From Theionarchaea archaeon (GTDB lineage Archaea > Methanobacteriota_B > Thermococci > Methanofastidiosales > SZ-28-30), in NCBI GenBank assembly GCA_018992565.1, contig JACVGW010000011.1, forward strand, positions 1 through 51,465: a stretch of 51,465 bases of DNA, read 5' to 3'. The translations under genes and the position numbers were made by a program. Below, one piece after another: positions 3,602 to 33,884 of this stretch. The notes under the pieces were generated by a model. That model saw only the letters and a program-made list of their open reading frames with translations. It did not search any database and was not told the DNA's origin. The first letter of the stretch is position 1, and each line of letters starts with the position of its first letter.

Positions 3602-4183
3602 TCTGTCTTCCTTGACTTTTTTTATTTTCATTTCAGTAAAGGGAAGTTGGTTTGTCGTTTCTCTGTAATGAATGCGTAATGTGTAGCTTTCTTTGAGAAT
3701 AGTCGCTTTAAACATGCCTTATGGAAACCACACGGCGCCATCTTCATCTGCTGTCCTGTTAGGACAGTCACAGGCATACTAACACTGTATATTACAGTTC
3801 TTTATAGGATTATAGGACAGACACAGAGTGGCCCTGAATGACCTCGAAGAGGAAAAAATGAGCCTATAGAGCTTTGTTTGACAATTGGAGACTTATTTTT
3901 TTACATTCATTATCTATTGTACCAATGAGAGGGGCTGCACCTCTCTCATAGCCTATGATGTCGTGGAACGGTCAACAGAAAAGATTTTATAGATGGGCAA
4001 ATCAACGCCAGCGAGGTGTTCTACATGATGTTGGAGTGTCCGATTTGTGACGCCGCTATCAACGTGAAGAATCCACAAGAAGGAGATATCGTTACCTGTA
4101 AGGAATGCGATACAGAATTCGAACTGGTTCAGTTCGATGATGAATGGGATCTCTTGGAAGTAGGAGAGGAAGACTGGGAAGAG
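3530..4183 (+). repeat. 57-bp exact direct repeat shared by the two LysW-like genes (3530-3586 and 4127-4183)
   Basis: GTTCAGTTCGATGATGAATGGGATCTCTTGGAAGTAGGAGAGGAAGACTGGGAAGAG occurs twice. Confidence 0.9.
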
Positions 4184-4198
4184 AATGAAGATCTCTGA
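4025..4198 (+). CDS. LysW/ArgW-like zinc-ribbon acidic carrier protein, copy 2 (atypical C-terminus)
   Basis: CPIC...CKEC, ends EEDWEENEDL; SD GAGGTG. Confidence 0.75.
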   Translation: MMLECPICDAAINVKNPQEGDIVTCKECDTEFELVQFDDEWDLLEVGEEDWEENEDL

Positions 4199-4282
4199 TA
4201 TGTCTTCCTTTCTTTATTTTTGTTTTGAGAAAGAAATAACACTGAATGAAGTTCATCCCTCTCCTGGTCTGGCGATGAAATC

Positions 4283-5629
4283 TTATCCTACCTTTTTTCT
4301 GTACAGCACAGCAACTATGATGGCTAGTACAAGTCCCCCTATACCCGCAATCCAGTACAGATCACACGATTCCTGGATTTCCTCCAATGGTGAACCCTGT
4401 GTCGGGACGGGAGAGAGAGGGGAAGGAGTGACTTCTCCAGGGACAGAAGATTCAGGGGGTTCAGGTCCAGGCGTGGCAGGAGGCGTGTAACCAGACAATC
4501 CAAAGCAATAGACAATCCCATTCACAGATCCTATAAAGAGAGAACCTTCTGCAATGGCAGGAGATGATTCTGCAATCTCCCCCGTTTCCAGAACCCATAT
4601 CAAATCACCCGTGTTCGCTTCAAGACAATATACATGTCCGTCATGAGATCCTACATACACTTTCCCTTCAACTGCTGCAGGAGAAGAATCTATGTCATCG
4701 CCTGTTTCAAAATACCATAAGACCTCACCATTATCACTATCGAGGCAGTATACAAAATTATTCCCAGATCCAATGTACACTTTTCCATCCATTACTGCAG
4801 GGGACGAGTACACGACTTCTTCTCCAGTATCGAACAGCCAGGCCAGTTCTCCTGTATATGCATCAAAACAATAAAAGTATGAATCGCAACAGGGATACAC
4901 GTATGAGCCAAAATACACCCTGCCCTCGTATATGGCAGGAGAGGAGCGCACCCTGATGTAATGCTCGCCCATAGAATAGAACCAGAGAAGCTGACCTGTG
5001 TCTGCTGAGAGGCAGTAGAATATAGTATCCCGGGCACCCACGAAGACTCTTCCATCATAAACAGCAGGAGAGGACGCAATCCATACACCTGTCTCATAGA
5101 ACCAGAGTATTTCCCCTGTATCTGCTGAAAGGCAGTAAATACTGGTGTCCCCGGATCCAAAATACACTTTTCCGTCCACTACGACAGGCGATGTCCACAC
5201 TGCCTGACCTGTTTCATACTTCCAGGCTACTTCTCCAGTAGTACTATCGAGACAGTACATAGAATAATCATTCGACCCAATGTACACCTTTCCACCACTC
5301 ACAGCAGGGGAGGAGACTACTTCACCTCCAGTCTGATATGTCCAGAGCACATTTCCGTTACCTGCATCCAGGCAATACACATTATGGTCGTGCGACCCAA
5401 TATACACCCTCCCACCACTCACAGCTGGAGAGGAGACTACTTCACCATCAGTCTGATATGCCCACAGAAGTTCCAGTTTATGAGGGAGACTGCATTGGGA
5501 ATATCCTGTATGCTCAGGATTGGATCTGAACATGGGCCAGTCGCAGGATGTCTGAGACCAACACCATGAACCAGTATATCCGGCGCACAGCACCAATACC
5601 AGTACAATGACTCCACTTTTCCATTTCAT
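4283..5629 (-). CDS. Secreted, membrane-anchored PQQ-like (BamB-type) beta-propeller repeat protein
   Basis: Signal peptide, WPMFR motif, about 8 repeats of 40 aa (SSPAVxxGxVYxGSxDxxxYCLxAxxGxxxW), Pro/Ser linker, C-terminal TM plus RKK. Confidence 0.9.
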   Translation of the reverse strand: MKWKSGVIVLVLVLCAGYTGSWCWSQTSCDWPMFRSNPEHTGYSQCSLPHKLELLWAYQTDGEVVSSPAVSGGRVYIGSHDHNVYCLDAGNGNVLWTYQTGGEVVSSPAVSGGKVYIGSNDYSMYCLDSTTGEVAWKYETGQAVWTSPVVVDGKVYFGSGDTSIYCLSADTGEILWFYETGVWIASSPAVYDGRVFVGARDTIFYCLSADTGQLLWFYSMGEHYIRVRSSPAIYEGRVYFGSYVYPCCDSYFYCFDAYTGELAWLFDTGEEVVYSSPAVMDGKVYIGSGNNFVYCLDSDNGEVLWYFETGDDIDSSPAAVEGKVYVGSHDGHVYCLEANTGDLIWVLETGEIAESSPAIAEGSLFIGSVNGIVYCFGLSGYTPPATPGPEPPESSVPGEVTPSPLSPVPTQGSPLEEIQESCDLYWIAGIGGLVLAIIVAVLYRKKVG

Positions 5630-11043: not shown

Positions 11044-12405
11044 ATGCACACGCCTGAAGACATTATTGCATTTTGTGAAGAAAGAAATATCCGGTTAATA
11101 AAACTGCAATTTGCAGATCTTGTAGGAGAACTGAAACAATTTGAGGTCCCTCTCAAGATTTTTCCCAAAGCTCTGGAAGAAGGGCTGAGTTTTGATGGAT
11201 CATCTGTTACAGGGATGAACCCTATTGAAGAGAGCGACCTGGTGGTAAAACCTGATGTGTCAACCTTTGTTGAACTGCCATTGGCAAGACAAAATGAAAA
11301 AGATAGAGAAAAGTCCCGTGTTGCCCGCGTTCTGTGCGATATCTACGAACCTCGAAATGGGAGCCTCACCCGACATCCAGGTGATCCTCGATTTGTCTTA
11401 CAGAAGAACCTGGAATACGCCTTGAAAAAAGGATTCATCTACAAGGTGGGCCCGGAACTGGAATTCTTCATGTTTGAACGAGAAGGTGTGGCCAGGGTGA
11501 CAGATTCAGGAGGATATTTCGCTTCTCCCTTCAGAGATCGCGGTGAACGCGTTCGGGAGCAAATTATTGGAATTCTTTCTGATCTGGGCAGCCAGACAGG
11601 CATTGAAGCCGAGTACTCTCACCATGAGGCAGCCTTTTCACAGCATGAGATTGATCTTAACTATGCAGAAGCCTTGAAGATGGCAGATTTCACCATGCTG
11701 TACAAGTGGATTGTGAAATTCATAGCAGAGCAAAATGAGATGGTAGCCACTTTCATGCCCAAACCCATTGAAGGGATTAATGGTTCTGGCATGCATATCC
11801 ACCAGAGTCTGGCAGATGAGAAGGGAGTTAATCTGTTTTATAATTCTAAGAACGAATATGGATTATCTGACATTGCAAGGCAGTTTATTGCAGGGCAGCT
11901 AAAATATGCACGCGAAATGTGCGGCATTCTGGCCCAGTGGGTGAACTCCTATAAAAGGCTGATCCCGAATTTTGAGGCCCCTACGTACGTGTCCTGGTCT
12001 GTGGTAAACCGGTCTGCTCTCATCAGAGTACCGCTATCATTGAAAAACCGGGAGAAAGCAGCGAGAGCAGAGATTCGATGTGCAGATCCCGCATGTAACC
12101 CGTATCTGGTGCTTGCTGTACTGCTCAGGGCAGGAATAGCAGGTATTGAAGAAGGGCTGGAACTTGAGAAGCCCCAGAAAGACAATTTATACAATCTGGG
12201 ATATCAAGAACGGAAAAAGCGTGGGATCATTGACTTACCCGGGAGTCTGGGAGAGGCTATTCGAGAAGTCGAGCAATCAGAGCTGGTCAGAGAAGCTCTG
12301 GGAGATTTCATCCTGGACAACTGGATAACGCTGAAGGCAGAAGAATGGGCCAACTACAGAAAAAAGGTCCACCACTGCGAACTGGAAGCATATTATCATC
12401 TCTGA
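11044..12405 (+). CDS. glnA: Glutamine synthetase type I
   Basis: FDGSS, GPELEFF, HHE...QHEI, FMPKP..GINGSGMHIHQSL, NSYKRL, NRSALIRVP, EIRCADPACNPYL. Confidence 0.95.
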   Translation: MHTPEDIIAFCEERNIRLIKLQFADLVGELKQFEVPLKIFPKALEEGLSFDGSSVTGMNPIEESDLVVKPDVSTFVELPLARQNEKDREKSRVARVLCDIYEPRNGSLTRHPGDPRFVLQKNLEYALKKGFIYKVGPELEFFMFEREGVARVTDSGGYFASPFRDRGERVREQIIGILSDLGSQTGIEAEYSHHEAAFSQHEIDLNYAEALKMADFTMLYKWIVKFIAEQNEMVATFMPKPIEGINGSGMHIHQSLADEKGVNLFYNSKNEYGLSDIARQFIAGQLKYAREMCGILAQWVNSYKRLIPNFEAPTYVSWSVVNRSALIRVPLSLKNREKAARAEIRCADPACNPYLVLAVLLRAGIAGIEEGLELEKPQKDNLYNLGYQERKKRGIIDLPGSLGEAIREVEQSELVREALGDFILDNWITLKAEEWANYRKKVHHCELEAYYHL

Positions 12406-12543
12406 TTTTTCTTATTTCTTTACTGGATGTATCCTTTCTTGATTTGTACAGAATAGAACAGACCCAAAGGTTAAGAAGAATCTACTGCTGTATTCAATGG
12501 GGATTAAATCAGGAATTTCCTTCAAAATAACGGAGGTGATAGT

Positions 12544-28092: not shown

Positions 28093-28158
28093 TTTCTCAC
28101 CATAATTCTTGGTTCTCATGTGGCATAAAAGGTTTCGGGGTTATTGCGGACCCTCCTT

Positions 28159-28258
28159 NNNNNNNNNNNNNNNNNNNNNNNNNNNNNNNNNNNNNNNNNN
28201 NNNNNNNNNNNNNNNNNNNNNNNNNNNNNNNNNNNNNNNNNNNNNNNNNNNNNNNNNN
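28159..28258. other. Assembly gap (100 N)
   Basis: Run of N; true length unknown. Confidence 0.99.
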
Positions 28259-28835
28259 AGGGGGAGGAAGGAGGACAGATACACCAATGGATTTCGAGCA
28301 GGGTCTTTGTTACCACGTTGCCAAACCGTGCTTGTGATCTCCCTTCATGAGGCGGGTTATGGTTCTCCAAATCCGCTTCCGTGTCCAGGCACTGGTACCC
28401 CAGACTGGAGAGTTGGTCTCTACAGGCCGGCAGGTCTTTGTCCTGAATGAGCAGATCAATATCAGCAAGAGGTCTCAACCCCATGTTCCCATAGACTGCT
28501 TTGGCCAGAAATATGCCTTTGAGACAAATGACTGGAATTGCAGCATCTGAGAAAACTCCGAGAATCTTTGCGAGTTCATGATAGAAAATCATATTACGGC
28601 CGACAGTCTCCAGGTACCTTCTCTTGAGGTGAGCTATCACATCGTCAGGTGTCTTCTCAAATCCTTTCAGATTCCAGTAGAGGAGTGGTGAGATTTCATG
28701 CAGATCAGAGCTATCTACTATATGCTTCCAGTCCATGTCTTCATTCAACAGGGCAGCGAGCTTTGAGTGTGTTTCAGACGTCATCTGGGTCCGCGCGCAG
28801 CACAAAAGGACTTCCTCTTCCGGTGAAAGATTCAT
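28259..28835 (-). CDS. Uncharacterised nucleotidyltransferase family protein (NTP_transf_5-like), 3' end lost in the gap
   Basis: LLCCAR, DW..H.ISPLLY, CLKGIFLA..VYG..GLRPLADIDLLI, LEIHW. Confidence 0.85.
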
Positions 28836-28888
28836 GTGAAACACACATTCCTCCAGGGGTCTGATATAAAAAGATATGGGCTGACCAC

Positions 28889-29734
28889 TCAAAGGCCCAG
28901 TGATATCTCTCTCATCACGTCTACAATGGACTCTGCAGGGACAAATCCAAGACGGTAGCAGGGGATATCAATCATTAACTCTGAGAGAAACTCCATAGTG
29001 AACACCATGCCCGCTCCGTCCCATCTTGGACAGAATGTGTGGCGAAGCATTGTTGCTAGAGTACCTTTCTGAGGTTCGAGGAAATTTCGTGGGGCGTGCT
29101 CAATGAAAAAGATGGCCTTTAACGGGAACTCCTGCGGGGAGGACATTTCAGTGTCTTTAACCCAGGGAGTACCATATACCAAATAGGGGGGTCTGCCCTT
29201 CCTCACGATGAGCGTGTCATCACTCAGAACAGTACAGTTCCTATACTTCCACAAAGCAGCCATAGTGCTCTTGCCAGCTCCTGACAATCCTGCACACATG
29301 AGTACATTCTCATCATCGACGATGCCCGCTCCATGGATCATGACGCCCAAGCCGGAGGCCAATATAGTTGCAAGAATATACCGGAAGAAAAACCGTTTCA
29401 GAGGATGCAGATATGTAGTGTAGAAATCGACTACCTTCTCCTTAGAATTTGCCTTCATGACTGCATCCCGCAACTCACGCCTGTAATCACGGATGTGAAA
29501 CTGAGTGATGAGATTGTCGCCATCGTGATACGTACTCAGTCTTTCTGAGCTATATACCTTTTCGCTTGGAAGAGAGAAAGGAGGATCCGAATTATGAAGT
29601 CTGAGAATTATGTCCGGGTTCCTGTCAGTAATGAATTTTTCATATATTTCGGGCAGCTCCAGATTACAGGAACAATGAGACTCTACTGCAATATTGACAG
29701 CACCAATACCAATGATAACGTCCTTCCATGTCAT
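28889..29734 (-). CDS. HprK-related P-loop kinase (ScmC-like)
   Basis: HGAGI, Walker A GLSGAGKST, LSDD, YGTPW. Confidence 0.8.
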   Translation of the reverse strand: MTWKDVIIGIGAVNIAVESHCSCNLELPEIYEKFITDRNPDIILRLHNSDPPFSLPSEKVYSSERLSTYHDGDNLITQFHIRDYRRELRDAVMKANSKEKVVDFYTTYLHPLKRFFFRYILATILASGLGVMIHGAGIVDDENVLMCAGLSGAGKSTMAALWKYRNCTVLSDDTLIVRKGRPPYLVYGTPWVKDTEMSSPQEFPLKAIFFIEHAPRNFLEPQKGTLATMLRHTFCPRWDGAGMVFTMEFLSELMIDIPCYRLGFVPAESIVDVMREISLGL

Positions 29735-29864
29735 TTCAGTTCACCTGCAAAGATCAGGTAATCAACGACTAATCATCTTATAAATCTTTTTGCCGAAAAC
29801 TGTAAGATTGTCATACGTTGTGAGAATGACAGAACCTTTAAGAATTCTCATGATAGGTACACGT

Positions 29865-30917
29865 ATGCAGGACGAAAAGGACTCTAGCAGGAAATCCTCG
29901 CATACAGTGAGATTCTGCTGTTCTTGCGGGCGCTCATTACAAGGAGTACATGAACCAGAAAAGGAAGCAGCAGTGTGGTTATGCGAATCCTGCGCGAGAG
30001 AGGAGCAGAAGCTGGTTCCCCATCTTCGCATGGGAGAGTACAGGCTCCTCCAGAGACTTGCGAGAGGTGGAAAATCAGTGGTGTACAAGGCATGGCAGCC
30101 TACCACATGTCAGGTGGTTGTTCTCAAGCAACTTTTACCAGCTGATGAACATCACCTGAAGCGCTTTCGTCATGAAATTGCCATCATGCAGAACGTGATT
30201 CATCCCAATATTGTTTCTCTCCTGGACCACGAGACTACTACCGAACCCTTCTATTCTGTTCTTGAATACATGCCCAGAGGAACCCTGCACAGTGAAGCGA
30301 GAACACAGTCTATGCCAGTTCCTGAGATATGCTGGAATTTCTGCCAGATCTTGGAGGCCCTGGATTACCTGCATGGAAAAAGAATCGTACATCGTGATGT
30401 GAAACCCCATAATATACTCCTCACAGCAAATGGGACAGCCAAACTTGCAGATTTCGGCTGTGCTCGTGAGATGAATGGAAATGATCTGTGTATACCTGAT
30501 ACCGGTAGGACTATTCCTTTCCTTTCTCCTGAAGAAATACAGGACAGCACCTACTTGAGCCCGTCAACAGATATGTATGCTGTGGGAGTGAGTCTGTACT
30601 ACCTTATCAGTGGGACGTTTCCGTTTCCATTTCCGTCCCAGGAGTCTGTTGTCAGAGTAGTACTAGGAGGAGAATCTTCCCGTGACCCTATAGCCCTGAT
30701 TCTTGAGAACAGGGAAAGAATCGAAACTGAGTTCGGGCGTGCGGTAATGCAGTCAATTGTGGAGGAGGATCGAATACCTGTTGGAATGTTCAGAAAGGAC
30801 ATTCCCAAGGACCTGGCTCGAATCATTGACAAGTCTGTCACGAAAAGGGAAGAAGATAGGGTCATGTCCGCGCGGGAAATGAGAGATGCGCTGCTGGCTC
30901 ACAGCCACAGGCTTTGA
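29865..30917 (+). CDS. Hanks-type Ser/Thr protein kinase with N-terminal zinc ribbon
   Basis: CxxC...CxxC; LARGGKSVVY, VVLK, HRDVKPHN, DFG, SPEE, DMYAVG; start uncertain. Confidence 0.9.
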   Translation: MQDEKDSSRKSSHTVRFCCSCGRSLQGVHEPEKEAAVWLCESCAREEQKLVPHLRMGEYRLLQRLARGGKSVVYKAWQPTTCQVVVLKQLLPADEHHLKRFRHEIAIMQNVIHPNIVSLLDHETTTEPFYSVLEYMPRGTLHSEARTQSMPVPEICWNFCQILEALDYLHGKRIVHRDVKPHNILLTANGTAKLADFGCAREMNGNDLCIPDTGRTIPFLSPEEIQDSTYLSPSTDMYAVGVSLYYLISGTFPFPFPSQESVVRVVLGGESSRDPIALILENRERIETEFGRAVMQSIVEEDRIPVGMFRKDIPKDLARIIDKSVTKREEDRVMSAREMRDALLAHSHRL

Positions 30918-31040
30918 ATCGGATGCTGTAATGCTGCTGCTTTTTCTACAAGTCAGCTCGTTATAGGAACATTCCCTTAAAAACAGAATCTTTTTTTATG
31001 ATGAATTTTTGAACAGAGAGAGTTAAAAAGAAACTCATCG

Positions 31041-31054
31041 GAAAGATTTAAATA
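31041..31054 (+). promoter_or_regulatory. BRE/TATA promoter of the precursor operon
   Basis: GAAAGATTTAAATA; SD GGAGGTGA follows at 31107-31114. Confidence 0.6.
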
Positions 31055-31119
31055 ACATACATCAGAGTCAACGTAATCCGTAACAAAAGGAACACAAATA
31101 CAAAAAGGAGGTGAGACCG

Positions 31120-31245
31120 GTGTATAAGCCCCCAATGATGGTAGACCTCATTTCCCCAGATAAGATGGTTGCCAATACCTGCAGCAACGGTAGCGGAAGT
31201 GACAACAGTTGCTCAAATGGGGATGATGGAGGATTCGTCTATTAG
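31120..31245 (+). CDS. Putative RiPP precursor peptide, 41 aa (MYKPPMMVDLISPDKMVANTCSNGSGSDNSCSNGDDGGFVY), ScmA-like
   Basis: GTG start 5 nt after a perfect GGAGGTGA SD; YxxP leader; two CSNG repeats; directly upstream of PqqD and two rSAM genes; below the ORF-track length cutoff. Confidence 0.85.
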   Translation: MYKPPMMVDLISPDKMVANTCSNGSGSDNSCSNGDDGGFVY

Positions 31246-31265
31246 ATCCAAGTAAGATTCTATCT

Positions 31266-31281
31266 CTATTTTTATTTTTTG
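31266..31281 (+). terminator. Oligo-T tract after the precursor gene (possible partial terminator)
   Basis: CTATTTTTATTTTTTG between the precursor and PqqD genes. Confidence 0.4.
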
Positions 31282-31308
31282 TCAATTCTTCTTGAAATGG
31301 AGATTCCC

Positions 31309-31578
31309 ATGGAACAAGATTATAAACCAAAGAAAGCGGAAAGGCTAATTTCGAGACAGGAAGATGACTCTTTGCTGATATTTGACTCAGATAGTGGATC
31401 CATCAAAGTGCTGAACGAGACAGCAGCTCTTGTGTGGAACACAATTGATGGGAACACGTCTGCACAAGAAATTATCGATGTTGTGTCTGAGAAAAATCCA
31501 GAAGAAAGCAGGGACACTATTGAAAGAGATGTCAAGGCTTTTCTGGAAGATCTTCAGAGCCACCATTTCATCATGTGA
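31309..31578 (+). CDS. PqqD family RiPP recognition element (ScmD-like)
   Basis: REDD.LLIFD..SG....LNETAALVW..IDG....EI...........DV..FLEDL pattern. Confidence 0.92.
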   Translation: MEQDYKPKKAERLISRQEDDSLLIFDSDSGSIKVLNETAALVWNTIDGNTSAQEIIDVVSEKNPEESRDTIERDVKAFLEDLQSHHFIM

Positions 31579-31629
31579 AAAGAAGATTTCTGTTCGGACA
31601 AAACCCTCAGCCACAGGAGATGATTGATT

Positions 31630-32670
31630 ATGAGAGGAATTTTCTGGGAAGTGACTTCCAGATGCAACCTACGATGTATGCACTGCTACTTGCATGAAGA
31701 GCTGACTTCTCTCTCCACAGATCCTTATGAACTGGATACTTTGGAATGCAAGAGATTAATCGACCAATTTGAAGAAGCTGGCGTCTTCTACGTGACTGTT
31801 TTGGGAGGAGAACCCTTCTGCAGACCAGATTTTATTACTATTCTACAGTACTTGGGAGAGAAAAAATTCTGGACTTCGCTTGATACCAACGGCACATTGC
31901 TGGACAAGATGGCCGCAGAAACCCTTGGAGCCATTACTATCAAAAATCTGAATGTCAGCATGGAAGGTCCCCGCCCTGAAATACATGATGCGATTCGCGG
32001 TGCAGGAGCCTACGAAAAGACAATCCGGGGGATAGAGAACCTCACGGAATGTGAGGTGCGGTTTCGCATAGGGATGATTGTCAATAAGATGAACTACCCC
32101 CACGTGGAGGAAATGGCAGAATTCTGCCTGGACATCGGCGCCCAAGATGCTGGATTCTCCTTGTATGTGGATTCCCCTTCAAACAGGTTCTCGTCAATGC
32201 TGCGAATGAATAGACGAGAGATTTTTGCTGCTGCCAGGAAAATAACAGAAGTGAAAGAGAGATTTCCCAAAGGATTTATCAAGAGTGACATTGACGGGAA
32301 CCTCGCATTTCTATCTGCCAATCCAGAAGAATACACCCGAAGTAAGAATCTTATCCCCTGCGGACTGGGAAAAACTCAGGCAACGATTCTCAACAATGGA
32401 GATATTATCCCCTGCACCTACATGCGGACTATAGTCGTTGGAAATGTGAGAGAGATCCATGTTTCAGAGATTGCCCAAACACCACAAATGAGAAAGATGC
32501 GAGAGCTGGGAACCCTTGCTGCTGACACAGCAATTGAGCAGTGTCGCTCCTGTAGGTGGAAGTATTTCTGTGGTGGAGGGTGCAGAGCGCGTTCATACCT
32601 GGAGTATGGGGACCTCGTATCTCCCGATCCTCTCAAGTGTCTGCTGGCTGGAGTTGATGCCTGTGAGTGA
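31630..32670 (+). CDS. Radical SAM/SPASM peptide maturase 1 (ScmE-like)
   Basis: CNLRCMHC, GGEPF, TNGTL; SPASM Cys pattern CGLG...PC...CRSCRWKYFCGGGCRA...C. Confidence 0.92.
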   Translation: MRGIFWEVTSRCNLRCMHCYLHEELTSLSTDPYELDTLECKRLIDQFEEAGVFYVTVLGGEPFCRPDFITILQYLGEKKFWTSLDTNGTLLDKMAAETLGAITIKNLNVSMEGPRPEIHDAIRGAGAYEKTIRGIENLTECEVRFRIGMIVNKMNYPHVEEMAEFCLDIGAQDAGFSLYVDSPSNRFSSMLRMNRREIFAAARKITEVKERFPKGFIKSDIDGNLAFLSANPEEYTRSKNLIPCGLGKTQATILNNGDIIPCTYMRTIVVGNVREIHVSEIAQTPQMRKMRELGTLAADTAIEQCRSCRWKYFCGGGCRARSYLEYGDLVSPDPLKCLLAGVDACE

Positions 32671-33748
32671 GCCACGGCTCAAGACAGTGTATTGGACTGT
32701 CACGCGTGAATGCAACCAGCGCTGCAGTCATTGCTGGATTAGTGCGGGGACAAGAAGGGAAGGTGAGTTGAATACTGAAGAATCCCTGCAGATTTTCAAC
32801 GTTATGGTGGACATGGGATTAGAGCAGGTGAAGTTGACAGGAGGTGAACCCCTTCTCCAATGGAAGAAAATCAATACTGTGATGGAATTTCTCATAGATC
32901 ATGGGGTTCAGCCTCGGATTGAGACTAATGCAACACTGATACAGGATGCCTATGGCGAGGAAATCCTATCATTTCTTGAGAAGAATCACGTACATGTGGC
33001 AGTAAGCCTTGACAGTCACATACCCCAGCAGCACGATCAGTTCAGGGGGATGAAAGGAGGGTTTGAAAAGACTCTTTCTGCATTGACCTCCATGAGAAGC
33101 CATAATATCTCGTTCTCGATTGTCACTGTGCTTCACAGGGAGAACCGTGCGACCATTGACGAGATTGTTGACTTTGTGCGTGAGATCTATCCGCGCCACC
33201 ACCAGATTAACATCATTACTCCTGAAGGAAGAGCAGAGAACAATGACCGATATCAGCTCCCTATAGAGTCGTACGTGGAAGATCTGCCTCTTCTCATAAA
33301 GAAAATCAGGAAAAAAATGGGAGAGAAGGTATCCTTTGCCATTCCGTATGTTTTTGCTCCGTTGAACACACGATTCCTTAACTGCACTGTGGGAAAGGAA
33401 ATCTGCGGCCTGCTGCCAAATGGCGACATTGCCATGTGTGGGGCTGGAATTAATCGAGAAGATCTTGTATTGGGAAATGCACTTCGAGATGATATTGAAG
33501 ATATCTGGCTGCACTCCCCTGTTTTCATGACATTGAGAAGAGGAATCACAAGCCTGAAGGGAGTGTGCAGTAACTGCTGGTTCGCTCAGTACTGCATGGG
33601 TCACTGCAGAGCGTATGCATATTCAGTATATGGCCAGTTGGAAGCTCCGTATCCAATGTGCCAGACAGTGTATGAGCAAGGAGCGTTCCCCGAAAAGTAT
33701 CTGGTGCATCCCGAGCGAGACTGTTCCTATGTTCCCCCAGAAGGATAA
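32657..33748 (+). CDS. Radical SAM/SPASM peptide maturase 2 (ScmF-like)
   Basis: CNQRCSHCWI, LTGGEPLL, IETNA; SPASM MCGAG...GVCSNC....CMGHCRA...C...GAFP; overlaps the end of the upstream rSAM gene. Confidence 0.92.
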   Translation: MPVSEPRLKTVYWTVTRECNQRCSHCWISAGTRREGELNTEESLQIFNVMVDMGLEQVKLTGGEPLLQWKKINTVMEFLIDHGVQPRIETNATLIQDAYGEEILSFLEKNHVHVAVSLDSHIPQQHDQFRGMKGGFEKTLSALTSMRSHNISFSIVTVLHRENRATIDEIVDFVREIYPRHHQINIITPEGRAENNDRYQLPIESYVEDLPLLIKKIRKKMGEKVSFAIPYVFAPLNTRFLNCTVGKEICGLLPNGDIAMCGAGINREDLVLGNALRDDIEDIWLHSPVFMTLRRGITSLKGVCSNCWFAQYCMGHCRAYAYSVYGQLEAPYPMCQTVYEQGAFPEKYLVHPERDCSYVPPEG

Positions 33749-33884
33749 GTGACGATTCAAGACATCTCTCGTCTGGACATGAGATCTGAATAAATCATTC
33801 GATGCATGTGACAATTCCATGGTACCTCTGACAGTGAGGGCCTCAATCACAAACCCTTATAAAAGGTATTCTAGAAGGTGAATC

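What the first reader, a model, noticed from the sequence alone, without database searches (positions are those of the whole stretch)
31120..31245. Unannotated 41-aa precursor with a duplicated N-[T/S]-C-S-N-G core
The peptide is MYKPPMMVDLISPDKMVA-NTCSNG-SGSD-NSCSNG-DDGGFVY. It has a perfect SD, its own promoter and a YxxP motif typical of RRE-bound leaders. The two CSNG units lie 10 residues apart and use different codons (TGC AGC AAC GGT vs TGC TCA AAT GGG), implying selection at the protein level. Two Cys motifs and two rSAMs suggest paired or sequential modifications, such as Cys-to-Asn/Ser/Gly/Asp thioethers (inference).
Basis: partly seen in the sequence, partly recalled or inferred. 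Interest (0 to 1): 0.85.

Follow-up and report, generated by a model that had tools for sequence, protein, structure and literature searches.

The report
Archaeal radical-SAM peptide precursor gene
This is a real, conserved 41-codon gene that encodes the substrate peptide of an uncharacterised peptide-modifying gene cluster in a sediment archaeon; what the enzymes do to the peptide is still unknown.

Summary
GTG 31120 to TAG 31245 encodes MYKPPMMVDLISPDKMVANTCSNGSGSDNSCSNGDDGGFVY, with GGAGG 8 nt upstream and two N-x-C-S-N-G units 10 residues apart written in different codons.

It is a gene. Five homologous peptides exist. Two of them sit in the same position, ahead of PqqD and two radical-SAM/SPASM genes, in metagenome loci L024 and L023. 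Invariant residues are P5, P13, N19, C21, S22, G24 and C31.

All six peptides carry a [Y/F]xxPx[M/I] leader. This resembles the lasso/PQQ-type RRE-binding motif. The PqqD's nearest solved relatives by sequence are the lasso RREs TbiB1 and TfuB1.

L024 conserves seven genes in a different order: precursor, PqqD, rSAM1, rSAM2, an HprK-like P-loop protein, an NTP_transf_5 protein and a Ser/Thr kinase.

The nearest named system is Haft's SynChlorMet cassette (ScmA/C/D/E/F). Every score is far below its cut-off, so this cluster is a relative and not a member.

The chemistry is inferred only. My best guess is two small Cys thioether rings plus Ser phosphorylation.

Verdict: a new variant of a known kind, of moderate interest.

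The parts
31039..31054 (+). BRE/TATA-like promoter element (CGGAAAGA + TTTAAATA), 65 nt before the start codon
   Evidence: Read. It aligns with CCGAAAACTTTAAATAC in L024 and CCGGAAAGCTTATATAC in L023. The genome is archaeal. Function is inferred.
31107..31111 (+). Shine-Dalgarno GGAGG, 8 nt before GTG 31120
   Evidence: GGAGGTGA is shared by all three loci.
31120..31245 (+). Precursor peptide gene, 41 aa plus stop
   Evidence: Homologues.
31123..31140 (+). Leader motif Y2-K-P-P-M-M7 ([Y/F]xxPx[M/I]), the presumed RRE-binding site
   Evidence: Present in 6 of 6 family peptides and in the L026 small ORF. Motif class described in PMC13381572 (sections read). Binding is inferred; the complex prediction gave weak support.
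31174..31191 (+). Core unit 1, N19-T-C21-S22-N-G24
   Evidence: N19, C21, S22 and G24 are invariant in 6 of 6.
31204..31221 (+). Core unit 2, N29-S-C31-S-N-G34
   Evidence: [N/E]-x-C-[S/T/D]-x-G in 5 of 6; C31 is invariant. Codons differ from unit 1.
31269..31280 (+). Oligo-T tract (TTTTTATTTTTT) after the stop codon; a possible archaeal attenuating terminator
   Evidence: T-rich tracts lie at the same place in L024 and L023. Function is inferred.
31309..31578 (+). Discrete PqqD-family RRE (89 aa from ATG 31309; the longest ORF starts at TTG 31279)
   Evidence: Pfam PqqD 57.7 bits against cut-off 23.4. The start is aligned with L023 and L024. Nearest solved relatives by sequence are TbiB1 at E 1.6e-5 and TfuB1 at 4.7e-4.
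31624..32670 (+). Radical SAM/SPASM enzyme 1
   Evidence: Radical_SAM 93.5 bits and SPASM 46.1 bits. CX3CX2C at residue 14 and a full 7-Cys SPASM motif. 51-55% identical in L023 and L024.
32657..33748 (+). Radical SAM/SPASM enzyme 2 (ScmF-like); overlaps enzyme 1 by 14 nt
   Evidence: Best NCBIfam hit is ScmF, 192 bits against cut-off 400. Motifs. 20 full-length orthologues and one fragment at 53-71% identity.
28889..29734 (-). HprK-like P-loop protein (ScmC-like)
   Evidence: NCBIfam HprK_rel_B E 2.3e-7, ScmC E 7.1e-5, HprK_rel_A E 3.7e-4, all below cut-off. Walker A GLSGAGKS at residue 149. 42% identical in L024.
28116..28892 (-). NTP_transf_5 nucleotidyltransferase-family gene, interrupted by a run of 100 N (28159-28258)
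   Evidence: Pfam PF14907 116.9 bits, covering profile positions 2-151 of 249. N run. The L024 orthologue is complete: 411 aa, positions 3-249 of 249.
29790..30917 (+). Ser/Thr protein kinase with an N-terminal Cys-rich segment (longest ORF; similarity to L024 begins at residue 42)
   Evidence: Pkinase 159.4 bits. HRDVKPHN and DFG motifs present. 40% identical in L024, and a C-terminal fragment lies at the edge of L023.

Best explanation
The ORF is the precursor (A) gene of a ribosomally synthesised, post-translationally modified peptide. It is the first gene of an archaeal operon: precursor, discrete PqqD RRE, and two radical SAM/SPASM enzymes.

Shown: the gene and its motifs are conserved, and so are its position and its six neighbours.

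Inferred, step by step:
1. Residues 2-7 ([Y/F]xxPx[M/I]), and probably the stretch up to P13, bind the PqqD protein in the way lasso and PQQ leaders bind their RREs.
2. The RRE presents the core (from about N19) to the two RRE-less rSAM/SPASM enzymes.
3. The two invariant cysteines, each inside an [N/E]-x-C-[S/T/D]-x-G unit, are the reactive residues. Most likely each gives one small thioether ring to a residue of its own unit, either Asn at -2 or Gly at +3. That would produce two unnested rings, as in type-2 sactipeptides.
4. The conserved HprK-like protein and NTP_transf_5 protein add a phosphate, probably on the invariant Ser next to Cys, and possibly a further group. This is what such pairs do in paeninodin-like lasso and LPP clusters.

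My odds: about 0.85 that it is a true RiPP precursor of this operon; about 0.6 that the RRE binds through the Y..P.M motif; about 0.35-0.4 that the rSAM products are Cys thioethers; about 0.3 for Ser phosphorylation.
For: Gene and family. ORF, SD and codons. Homologous peptides lie directly upstream of PqqD in L024 (41 aa) and L023 (26 aa). Three further peptides came from a search of 1.84 billion proteins at E 3.0e-11 to 7.7e-11. Invariant residues are P5, P13, N19, C21, S22, G24 and C31. Three of the four library peptides share their longest-contig length and at least one source with an rSAM2 orthologue: 10097 bases for P0116/P0003, 4127 for P0117/P0013, 68870 for P0114/P0010. This is an indirect sign that they lie on the same contigs.

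Synteny. L024 holds all seven genes at 40-59% identity in a different order.

Signals. TATA/BRE-like box, GGAGGTGA and a post-stop oligo-T tract occur in all 3 loci.

RRE. Pfam PqqD 57.7 bits against cut-off 23.4. The nearest solved sequences are the lasso RREs TbiB1 and TfuB1. Discrete lasso RREs recognise [Y/W]xxPx[L/V/I/A/F/Y], a motif also found in PQQ precursors (PMC13381572, Introduction read).

Complex prediction, PqqD with precursor. Weak support: score 0.50, best of 3 controls 0.01. The mark was reached by 116 of 157 solved complexes and 2 of 215 mismatched pairs. At 0.60 or under it was reached by only 18 of those 157 and by both mismatches that passed. Runs agree in at least 97% of contacts, and the partner's pLDDT is at least 52. 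My own alignments were used, so the counts hold only roughly. Similar RRE-leader complexes are solved, so the pass may come from memory.

Enzymes. Both have CX3CX2C and the full 7-Cys SPASM motif and no N-terminal RRE.

Precedents. NxxcB links Cys to the beta-carbon of Asn. GggB and QmpB each install two unnested sactionine rings (PMC9389541, passages). Two-rSAM thioether systems: RumMC1/MC2 and thuricin CD (abstracts in the listing only). HprK-like kinase plus NTP transferase plus RRE phosphorylate a Ser of the precursor (PMC13381572, sections 6 and 7 read).
Against: There is no expression or peptide-level evidence of any kind.

The family is small. It has six peptides, and only three loci have DNA context. 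Two of those (L023, L024) come from one metagenome.

Neither rSAM reaches the cut-off of any thioether-forming family: StsB 142.6 and 126.4 against 625; AlbA 85.4 and 71.6 against 850; PapB 84.4 against 340; SkfB 74.4 against 300. Their best solved relatives include non-thioether enzymes: PqqE for both, and anSME for rSAM1. A published view is that chemistry cannot be predicted for an uncharacterised rSAM without very high identity to a known one (PMC10288494, Introduction passage).

L023 lacks unit 2.

Met at the last motif position is not in the published residue set.

No leader peptidase and no exporter were found among the 15 ORFs scanned between 24924 and 39612. The SSF symporter downstream is not found in L023 or L024.

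The HprK-like assignment rests on sub-threshold hits, and a PDB sequence search gave nothing.

The complex score is only in the weak band.
Confidence: 0.6

Rival explanations
1. It is a true precursor, but the rSAM/SPASM enzymes do something other than make Cys thioethers. Options include C-C or C-O cross-links, epimerisation, or oxidation of Cys or Ser to formylglycine as anSME does. The conserved Cys would then serve as a metal ligand or as a later nucleophile.
For: Top NCBIfam and PDB relatives are functionally mixed. They include MftC, AhbD, NirJ2, PqqE and anSME. rSAM chemistry is not predictable at this identity (PMC10288494 passage).
Against: The only invariant side chains in the core are Asn, Cys, Ser, Gly and Cys. 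There is no conserved aromatic, Lys or Arg residue of the kind used in known C-C cross-links: W-F is present in 3 of 6 peptides only. The anSME substrate motif C/S-x-P/A-x-R (recalled) is absent.
Confidence: 0.2
2. It is a true precursor, but of an intracellular small cofactor or redox molecule in the manner of PQQ or mycofactocin. It would not be a secreted bioactive peptide. The peptide would be a scaffold that is trimmed after cross-linking.
For: Discrete PqqD plus RRE-less SPASM enzymes is the PqqD/PqqE and MftB/MftC layout. rSAM1's top NCBIfam hit is the mycofactocin maturase, 148.5 bits. PqqE is its top PDB hit. No exporter, immunity gene or peptidase is in the conserved set. The window peptide ends in V-Y, like the Gly-Val-Tyr end of MftA (recalled).
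Against: 148.5 bits is far below the 265 cut-off and is nearly tied with AhbD, NirJ2 and ScmE. The V-Y end is in 1 of 6 peptides, and the C-termini are the most variable part. Cofactor precursors are usually strongly conserved at the reacting residues. No MftD/E/F-like or PqqB/C-like genes are present.
Confidence: 0.12
3. It is simply a member of the already defined SynChlorMet cassette, that is an ScmA, and nothing new.
For: The peptide's only NCBIfam hit is ScmA (E 0.0017). The neighbours hit ScmC, ScmD, ScmE and ScmF, with ScmF clearly the best hit for rSAM2. JGI names the 71% orthologue P0003 'ScmF'.
Against: All five scores are below cut-off: 18.6 against 35, 22.3 against 125, 33.8 against 100, 144.7 against 400, and 192 against 400. 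A true ScmF, P0055, scores 555.6, while the orthologues P0003 and P0010 score 201.8 and 183.8. The ScmA model hits 2 of 6 family peptides. At E<=10 it rings in 10 of 14 control genomes. The added NTP_transf_5 and Ser/Thr kinase genes are not part of the five SCM models.
Confidence: 0.06
4. It is a chance ORF in an intergenic leader region, and the real substrate lies elsewhere.
For: No RNA or protein evidence exists. The peptide alone found nothing in the word-indexed search.
Against: Homologues with the same motifs lie at the same position. SD and start are conserved. It is the only one of 36,526 small ORFs with the tandem motif.
Confidence: 0.02

Closest known systems
SynChlorMet (SCM) cassette of NCBIfam/TIGRFAMs: ScmA TIGR04252, ScmC TIGR04249, ScmD TIGR04248, ScmE TIGR04250, ScmF TIGR04251. 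It is defined bioinformatically. I found no paper on it: 0 papers for 'SynChlorMet' and 0 for the five accessions.
   Same: The cast is the same: a small precursor, a PqqD-family protein, two SPASM radical-SAM enzymes and a P-loop ScmC/HprK-like protein. ScmF is the clear best model for rSAM2, and ScmA is the only model hit by the peptide.
   Different: Every score is at half the cut-off or less. Identity to named ScmF proteins is about 30-35%. The archaeal clade adds an NTP_transf_5 protein and a eukaryote-type Ser/Thr kinase. I could not see true ScmA sequences, so the cores cannot be compared.
Type-2 sactipeptides and ranthipeptide-like RaS-RiPPs: streptosactin/GggB, QmpB, NxxcB (PMC9389541, passages)
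   Same: A short core with two Cys in repeated units. The precedents show two small unnested thioether rings and an Asn acceptor close to the Cys. The maturases are SPASM-type.
   Different: Those enzymes are bacterial (streptococcal), with one rSAM per cluster. None of their family models is approached here. The bond type here is untested. The motif here is N-x-C, not N-x-x-C.
Lasso-peptide and LPP leader/RRE systems with HprK-like kinase and NTP-transferase tailoring (PMC13381572, sections read)
   Same: A [Y/F]xxPx[hydrophobic] leader motif and a discrete PqqD-type RRE whose nearest solved relatives are the lasso RREs TbiB1 and TfuB1. An HprK-like and NTP_transf_5 gene pair sits next to the precursor.
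   Different: There is no lasso cyclase, no B2 peptidase, no SpI peptidase and no MsbA-like exporter among the ORFs scanned. Two rSAM/SPASM enzymes take their place. The host is an archaeon. Met occupies the last motif position in 5 of 6 peptides.
PQQ (PqqA/D/E) and mycofactocin (MftA/B/C) pathways
   Same: A small peptide, a discrete PqqD-family chaperone and an RRE-less SPASM enzyme. PqqE and MftC are among the best hits for rSAM1.
   Different: Scores are below cut-off: MftC 148.5 against 265, PqqE 105.3 against 381. There is no conserved Glu/Tyr or Val-Tyr reacting pair. There are two rSAMs. None of the downstream pathway genes is present.

Membership tests
SynChlorMet cassette | Precursor passes ScmA model TIGR04252 (cut-off 35 bits) | tested here: not met
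   18.6 bits, E 0.0017. 2 of 6 family peptides hit at all. The model rings in 10 of 14 control genomes at E<=10.
SynChlorMet cassette | rSAM enzymes pass ScmE (400 bits) and ScmF (400 bits) | tested here: not met
   rSAM1 scores 144.7 on ScmE and rSAM2 scores 192 on ScmF. A true ScmF, P0055, scores 555.6.
SynChlorMet cassette | PqqD relative passes ScmD (100 bits) and the P-loop protein passes ScmC (125 bits) | tested here: not met
   33.8 and 22.3 bits.
SynChlorMet cassette | Cassette architecture: small peptide, ScmC-like protein, PqqD and two SPASM rSAMs together | tested here: met
   All are present within 28889-33748 and conserved in L024.
RRE-dependent rSAM/SPASM RiPP cluster (generic) | CX3CX2C radical SAM site and 7-Cys SPASM motif in the maturase | tested here: met
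   Both enzymes have them.
RRE-dependent rSAM/SPASM RiPP cluster (generic) | PqqD/RRE domain above Pfam threshold next to a conserved small peptide gene | tested here: met
   57.7 bits against 23.4. The peptide is conserved in position in 3 of 3 loci that reach far enough upstream.
RRE-dependent rSAM/SPASM RiPP cluster (generic) | The leader physically binds the RRE | tested here: inconclusive
   Prediction only: score 0.50 against best control 0.01, in the weak band. No experiment.
Sactipeptides / ranthipeptides | Cys-to-carbon thioether bonds in the mature peptide | not testable with these tools
   Needs mass spectrometry or NMR.
Sactipeptides / ranthipeptides | Maturase belongs to a known thioether-forming family (StsB, AlbA, PapB, SkfB models) | tested here: not met
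   All are far below cut-off.
Lasso peptides | Lasso cyclase (C) and B2 leader peptidase in the cluster | tested here: not met
   Neither was found among 15 ORFs scanned with Pfam between 24924 and 39612, nor in the 9 kb of L024 that was listed.
Lasso peptides | [Y/W]xxPx[L/V/I/A/F/Y] leader motif | tested here: inconclusive
   [Y/F]xxPx[M/I] in 6 of 6. Phe at position 1 and Met at position 6 are outside the published sets.
LPP / paeninodin-type tailoring module | HprK-like kinase and NTP transferase beside a discrete RRE | tested here: inconclusive
   NTP_transf_5 is clear: 116.9 bits here and 195 bits in L024. The HprK-like protein has only sub-threshold hits plus a Walker A motif.
LPP / paeninodin-type tailoring module | SpI-like leader peptidase and MsbA-like exporter | tested here: not met
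   Not among the ORFs scanned.
Mycofactocin | MftC model (265 bits) and a conserved C-terminal Val-Tyr on the precursor | tested here: not met
   148.5 bits. V-Y is at the end of 1 of 6 peptides.

The most novel reading that the evidence does not exclude
This is the founding example of an archaeal RiPP class in which one lasso/PQQ-type Y..P.M leader and one discrete RRE serve two different chemistries. The first is a pair of SPASM radical-SAM enzymes acting on a tandem [N/E]-x-C-[S/T/D]-x-G core. The second is a kinase/nucleotidyltransferase module, with a eukaryote-type Ser/Thr kinase as an added partner. The product would be a phosphorylated, or further decorated, bicyclic peptide of a kind not yet described. 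It would also give the first handle on what the unstudied SynChlorMet-type cassettes make.
Probability: 0.25. Interest if true: 0.75.

Novelty: new variant of a known kind. Interest (0 to 1): 0.55.

Why it matters
As far as I recall, radical-SAM RiPPs from archaea have hardly been studied by experiment. A search for 'archaeal RiPP' with 'radical SAM' listed no paper using the first phrase among its 12 best of 226. The SynChlorMet-type cassettes are named in annotation pipelines, but no paper could be found for them.

This finding supplies the missing substrate for one such branch. It gives a short peptide, clear invariant residues for mutagenesis (Y2, P5, M7, P13, N19, C21, S22, G24, C31) and a defined seven-gene set that can be expressed in E. 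coli. It also extends the lasso/PQQ-type leader motif to an archaeal rSAM system. That bears on how RREs are shared and re-used between RiPP classes.

Tried and rejected
1. A search with the peptide alone in the word-indexed protein collection found no candidate. The profile searches later succeeded.

2. Two scans of genome contigs with rSAM2, one with the single protein and one with alignment A1, found no relative. A search of 133 genomes of the class with A1 matched the own genome only. The same search with the peptide profile A3 gave the own genome at E 2.8e-23; the 4 other rows, at E 0.0098-0.079, are short or hold stop codons, and I take them as noise.

3. Expression: no RNA holder is listed among 23 runs.

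4. Laying contigs of 4 runs showed 6 single-base differences in 2,901 bases and none in the 126-base ORF. About 0.26 would be expected by length, so this says nothing on selection. A contig in run X20 that 'skips' 31000-31275 matches only 22-23 bases on each side, and I take it for another organism.

5. Same-genus clusters with ScmF-like genes at about 30-35% identity (G001 C7 and C17; L035, L036) hold no peptide of this family. The same is true of L027 and L028, which have lone ScmF-like genes.

6. The second weak ScmA hit in the genome (C52, E 0.114) is taken as noise.

7. The mycofactocin-like reading of the C-terminal V-Y is rejected as a family feature.

8. A PDB sequence search with the HprK-like profile gave nothing meaningful.

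9. Three tools did not complete: earlier findings, cluster members, and a search of the records behind L023-L026. I therefore could not see the contigs of the other rSAM2 orthologues, nor whether L023 holds the HprK-like and NTP_transf_5 genes further upstream.

10. Literature: 'SynChlorMet' 0 papers. The five TIGR accessions 0 papers. 'Theionarchaea' with 'radical SAM' gave 2 papers, neither on RiPPs judging by title and abstract. Supplements were not opened.
Full report
**1. The observation**

The + strand from 31120 (GTG) to 31245 (TAG) encodes 41 residues: MYKPPMMVDLISPDKMVANTCSNGSGSDNSCSNGDDGGFVY, with the first codon read as Met. GGAGG lies at 31107-31111, 8 nt before the start.

The ORF listing reports a 44-aa form from an upstream GTG at 31111. 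That codon sits inside the Shine-Dalgarno sequence. The alignment with the homologous locus L023 (GGAGGTGAGAnnnnTGTATAAGCC) puts the start at 31120.

The two N-x-C-S-N-G units are AAT ACC TGC AGC AAC GGT and AAC AGT TGC TCA AAT GGG. The cysteines are 10 residues apart, and the shared Ser, Asn and Gly use different codons.

**2. The organism**

The window is contig C24 of a 2.8-Mb assembly in 154 contigs, 88% complete. The genome encodes TiaS. In the tool's control set of 14 genomes, TiaS is found only in the 4 archaea.

The nearest orthologues of the cluster's enzymes are labelled by NCBI as Theionarchaea or Candidatus Methanofastidiosia archaeon.

A bacterial promoter reading therefore does not apply. 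What is present is TTTAAATA at 31047-31054, preceded by CGGAAAG. This aligns with CCGAAAACTTTAAATAC in L024 and CCGGAAAGCTTATATAC in L023. After the stop codon all three loci have oligo-T tracts, followed by a GGAG-type ribosome-binding site and the ATG of PqqD. I read these as an archaeal TATA/BRE promoter and a possible attenuating terminator. Both readings are inferred.

**3. Surroundings in the window**

Downstream on the same strand lie four genes.
- A PqqD-family protein, 31309-31578 (Pfam 57.7 bits against cut-off 23.4).
- Radical SAM/SPASM enzyme 1, 31624-32670.
- Radical SAM/SPASM enzyme 2, 32657-33748, overlapping enzyme 1 by 14 nt.
- A sodium:solute symporter.

Both enzymes begin directly with CX3CX2C. 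Both carry the full SPASM pattern CX9-15GX4C ... CX2CX5CX3C ... C, and neither has an N-terminal RRE domain.

Upstream lie a Ser/Thr protein kinase with intact HRD and DFG motifs (29790-30917, +) and two genes on the other strand.
- A P-loop protein with weak matches to HprK-related kinases and to ScmC (28889-29734).
- An NTP_transf_5 protein (28116-28892).

The NTP_transf_5 gene is cut by a run of exactly 100 N at 28159-28258 and covers only profile positions 2-151 of 249. A run of 100 N is the usual mark of an assembly gap of unknown length; this is recalled. The gene is therefore probably incomplete in the assembly and not in the organism.

**4. Is the peptide conserved?**

Enzyme 2 has 20 full-length orthologues and one fragment at 53-71% identity in a collection of 5.8 billion proteins. 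Below that, identity falls to 35% or less.

None was found in 132 other genomes of the class. None was found in two scans of the species-genome collection.

One metagenome scan gave three orthologous loci.
- L025 is too short to show the upstream region.
- In L024 a 41-aa ORF, MIYEPPIMSGIISPNPFNGCSNGKGWFEGCSSGGGGAEEPE, lies directly before PqqD.
- In L023 a 26-aa ORF, MYKPPLMTNLVDPAAAGTNICSPGCY, does the same.

A profile of the three peptides was scored against 1.84 billion proteins. It returned 6 hits at E<=0.001.
- The L024 peptide itself.
- Three new small peptides: P0115 MIYEPPKIVDVVSPEAQAFNGCSNGDGWFNGCSSGS, P0116 MFKSPKMADLITPDAAARNTCSKGSGTDNSCTGGDDGGYLE and P0117 MYNPPSMNDLVAPDADAFNTCSSGKGWFNSCDGGGDDAIE, at E 3.0e-11 to 7.7e-11.
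- Two long Cys-rich repeat proteins that match only the core.

In the six-peptide alignment P5, P13, N19, C21, S22, G24 and C31 are invariant. [Y/F]xxPx[M/I] is present in 6 of 6. Unit 1 (N-x-C-S-x-G) is present in 6 of 6. Unit 2 ([N/E]-x-C-[S/T/D]-x-G, 10 residues on) is present in 5 of 6.

Three of the four library peptides share their longest-contig length and at least one source with an enzyme-2 orthologue. This suggests, but does not prove, that they lie on the same contigs.

In this genome, 1 of 36,526 small six-frame ORFs carries the tandem motif. The motif was defined after the fact.

The ORF is a gene under protein-level constraint.

**5. Which genes belong together?**

tblastn of nine window proteins against L024 finds seven of them.

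| Gene | Identity to L024 |
|---|---|
| NTP_transf_5 | 46% |
| HprK-like | 42% |
| Ser/Thr kinase | 40% |
| precursor | 45% |
| PqqD | 55% |
| enzyme 1 | 55% |
| enzyme 2 | 59% |

The order differs. In L024 the kinase lies outside the divergent pair, while in the window it lies between that pair and the precursor. Conservation of content through a rearrangement argues for a functional unit.

The nitroreductase and the symporter that flank the window cluster are not found in L024 or L023.

L023 has the kinase's C-terminus at its edge. It also holds a second copy of enzyme 1, a squalene-cyclase-repeat protein and a hydantoinase-like protein between PqqD and enzyme 1. A broken partial copy of the enzyme 1/enzyme 2 junction lies further on. 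L023 and L024 come from one metagenome, so they are not fully independent.

**6. Leader and RRE**

The published consensus for discrete lasso RREs is [Y/W]xxPx[L/V/I/A/F/Y], and it also occurs in PQQ precursors (PMC13381572, Introduction read). The family motif [Y/F]xxPx[M/I] is a close variant.

By sequence, the nearest solved relatives of the PqqD profile are the lasso RREs TbiB1 (E 1.6e-5) and TfuB1 (E 4.7e-4). These rank ahead of PqqD proper (E 0.016).

A complex prediction of PqqD with the precursor gave weak support.
- Score 0.50, best of 3 controls 0.01.
- The mark was reached by 116 of 157 solved complexes and 2 of 215 mismatched pairs.
- At 0.60 or under, it was reached by only 18 of those 157 and by both mismatches that passed.
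- Runs agree in at least 97% of contacts, and the partner's pLDDT is at least 52.
- My own shallow alignments were used, and similar complexes are solved, so the pass may reflect likeness only.

A more distant cluster, L026, has PqqD and an ScmF-like enzyme at 34% identity. It carries a 39-aa ORF, MKNLKRKKRKYVKPIMRDLEELTGIDCKCGGCVLSGNAL, with the same Y..P.M..L pattern and a Cys-rich end. The leader type therefore reaches beyond the archaeal clade.

**7. Nearest named system**

The peptide's only NCBIfam hit is ScmA of the SynChlorMet cassette (18.6 bits, E 0.0017, cut-off 35). The neighbours hit the other four SCM models.

| Window gene | SCM model | Bits | Cut-off |
|---|---|---|---|
| HprK-like | ScmC | 22.3 | 125 |
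| PqqD | ScmD | 33.8 | 100 |
| enzyme 1 | ScmE | 144.7 | 400 |
| enzyme 2 | ScmF | 192 | 400 |

ScmF is clearly the best model for enzyme 2.

A protein that NCBI names ScmF (P0055) scores 555.6 on the ScmF model, while the orthologues P0003 and P0010 score 201.8 and 183.8. The ScmA model hits only 2 of 6 family peptides. At E<=10 it rings in 10 of 14 control genomes, so that hit alone carries little weight. What counts is the five-for-five pattern of weak hits.

I therefore file the cluster as a relative of the SCM cassette with the same cast, not as a member.

No paper was found for 'SynChlorMet' or for the five accession numbers. That the SCM cassette has never been studied by experiment is my recollection, supported by these two blanks.

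**8. Mechanism**

Shown:
- a conserved peptide with an RRE-type leader;
- a discrete RRE;
- two RRE-less SPASM enzymes with all cluster-binding cysteines;
- a conserved P-loop and nucleotidyltransferase pair and a kinase.

Inferred: the RRE binds residues 2-7 (to about 13) and delivers the core to the enzymes.

The only invariant core side chains are Asn, Cys, Ser, Gly and Cys. There is no conserved aromatic or basic residue of the kind used in known C-C cross-links. Cys chemistry is therefore the most economical reading.

Precedents come from passages of PMC9389541.
- NxxcB joins Cys to the beta-carbon of a nearby Asn.
- GggB and QmpB each make two small unnested sactionine rings, with donors and acceptors alternating along the core.
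- Streptosactin has a pair of 4-residue rings.

The invariant C-x-x-G and the near-invariant [N/E]-x-C fit either a Cys-to-Gly(+3) alpha-thioether or a Cys-to-Asn(-2) beta-thioether in each unit.

Two-enzyme thioether systems exist: RumMC1/MC2 and thuricin CD (abstracts in the listing only).

HprK-like kinases in RiPP clusters phosphorylate a precursor Ser in an RRE-linked way, and they travel with NTP transferases (PMC13381572, sections 6 and 7). The invariant Ser22 beside Cys21 is the obvious candidate.

Against this reading:
- the enzymes reach no family cut-off;
- their best relatives are functionally mixed;
- a published view holds that rSAM chemistry cannot be predicted at such distances (PMC10288494 passage);
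- no leader peptidase or exporter is in the conserved set, which keeps a cofactor-like, intracellular role open.

**9. Other evidence**

Near-identical DNA of 29700-33800 is held by 20 runs from 7 studies. These are labelled marine sediment, estuary, mangrove, sediment, soil and unspecified metagenomes; 12 of the 20 are marked as possible sources of this DNA. No run is on record as RNA.

Contigs from two runs cover 30900-33800 whole or nearly so. They carry 5 and 6 single-base differences, none of them in the precursor ORF, which is too short for this to mean anything.

**10. Verdict**

It is a new, small family of precursor peptides for an archaeal branch of SCM-like PqqD plus double-rSAM clusters, enlarged by a kinase/nucleotidyltransferase module.

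It is a new variant of a known kind. The chemistry is unknown and can be tested with a simple co-expression experiment. Interest 0.55.

Noticed in passing
window 28159-28258: A run of exactly 100 N lies inside the NTP_transf_5 gene. The gene covers only profile positions 2-151 of 249 here, but 3-249 in L024. The nitroreductase gene follows 40 nt beyond the gap, so its adjacency to the cluster spans an assembly gap.
   Followed up: partly
G000 genome-wide (e.g. C110:19971-24430, C119:11015-16508, C133:17981-20222): The genome holds 16 places that match rSAM2 at E<=1e-20, many of them in tandem, and 11 ORFs that match the PqqD profile. C119 has an MFS transporter, a PqqD and four SPASM rSAM genes in a row, with no obvious precursor on that strand. 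The organism appears unusually rich in rSAM peptide-maturation clusters.
   Followed up: partly
L023:1617-3038, 3844-4956 and 11767-12420: The L023 version of the cluster has a short 26-aa precursor ending in C-S-P-G-C-Y. It also has an extra enzyme-1 paralogue, a squalene-hopene-cyclase-repeat protein and a hydantoinase/MfnF-like protein inserted after PqqD. A degraded partial copy of the enzyme 1/enzyme 2 junction lies 5 kb downstream.
   Followed up: partly
L026:715-834: A 39-aa ORF with the same Y..P.M..L leader pattern and a C-K-C-G-G-C end lies upstream of PqqD and an ScmF-like rSAM (34% identity to enzyme 2; 200 bits on ScmF, below cut-off). The ScmA model does not recognise it.
   Followed up: partly
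window 29790-30917 and L024:260-1468: A eukaryote-type Ser/Thr kinase with an N-terminal Cys-x-x-Cys pair region travels with the cluster (40% identity) but changes position. It could act on the peptide or be a regulator.
   Followed up: no
window 31231-31242: The window peptide ends in F-V-Y, recalling the Val-Tyr end of the mycofactocin precursor (recalled), and enzyme 1's top NCBIfam hit is MftC. The ending is not shared by the 5 homologues.
   Followed up: yes
P0118 (317 aa) and P0119 (1436 aa): Two long proteins match the peptide profile only through repeated F-Q-S-C-S-N-G-F-R-G-C-C-like units. They are probably unrelated Cys-rich repeat proteins that happen to share C-S-N-G.
   Followed up: no
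window 29700-33800: Near-identical DNA (0.89-0.99 of sampled words) is held by 20 sequencing runs from 7 studies of sediment-type habitats. This strain, or close kin carrying the cluster, is widespread.
   Followed up: partly
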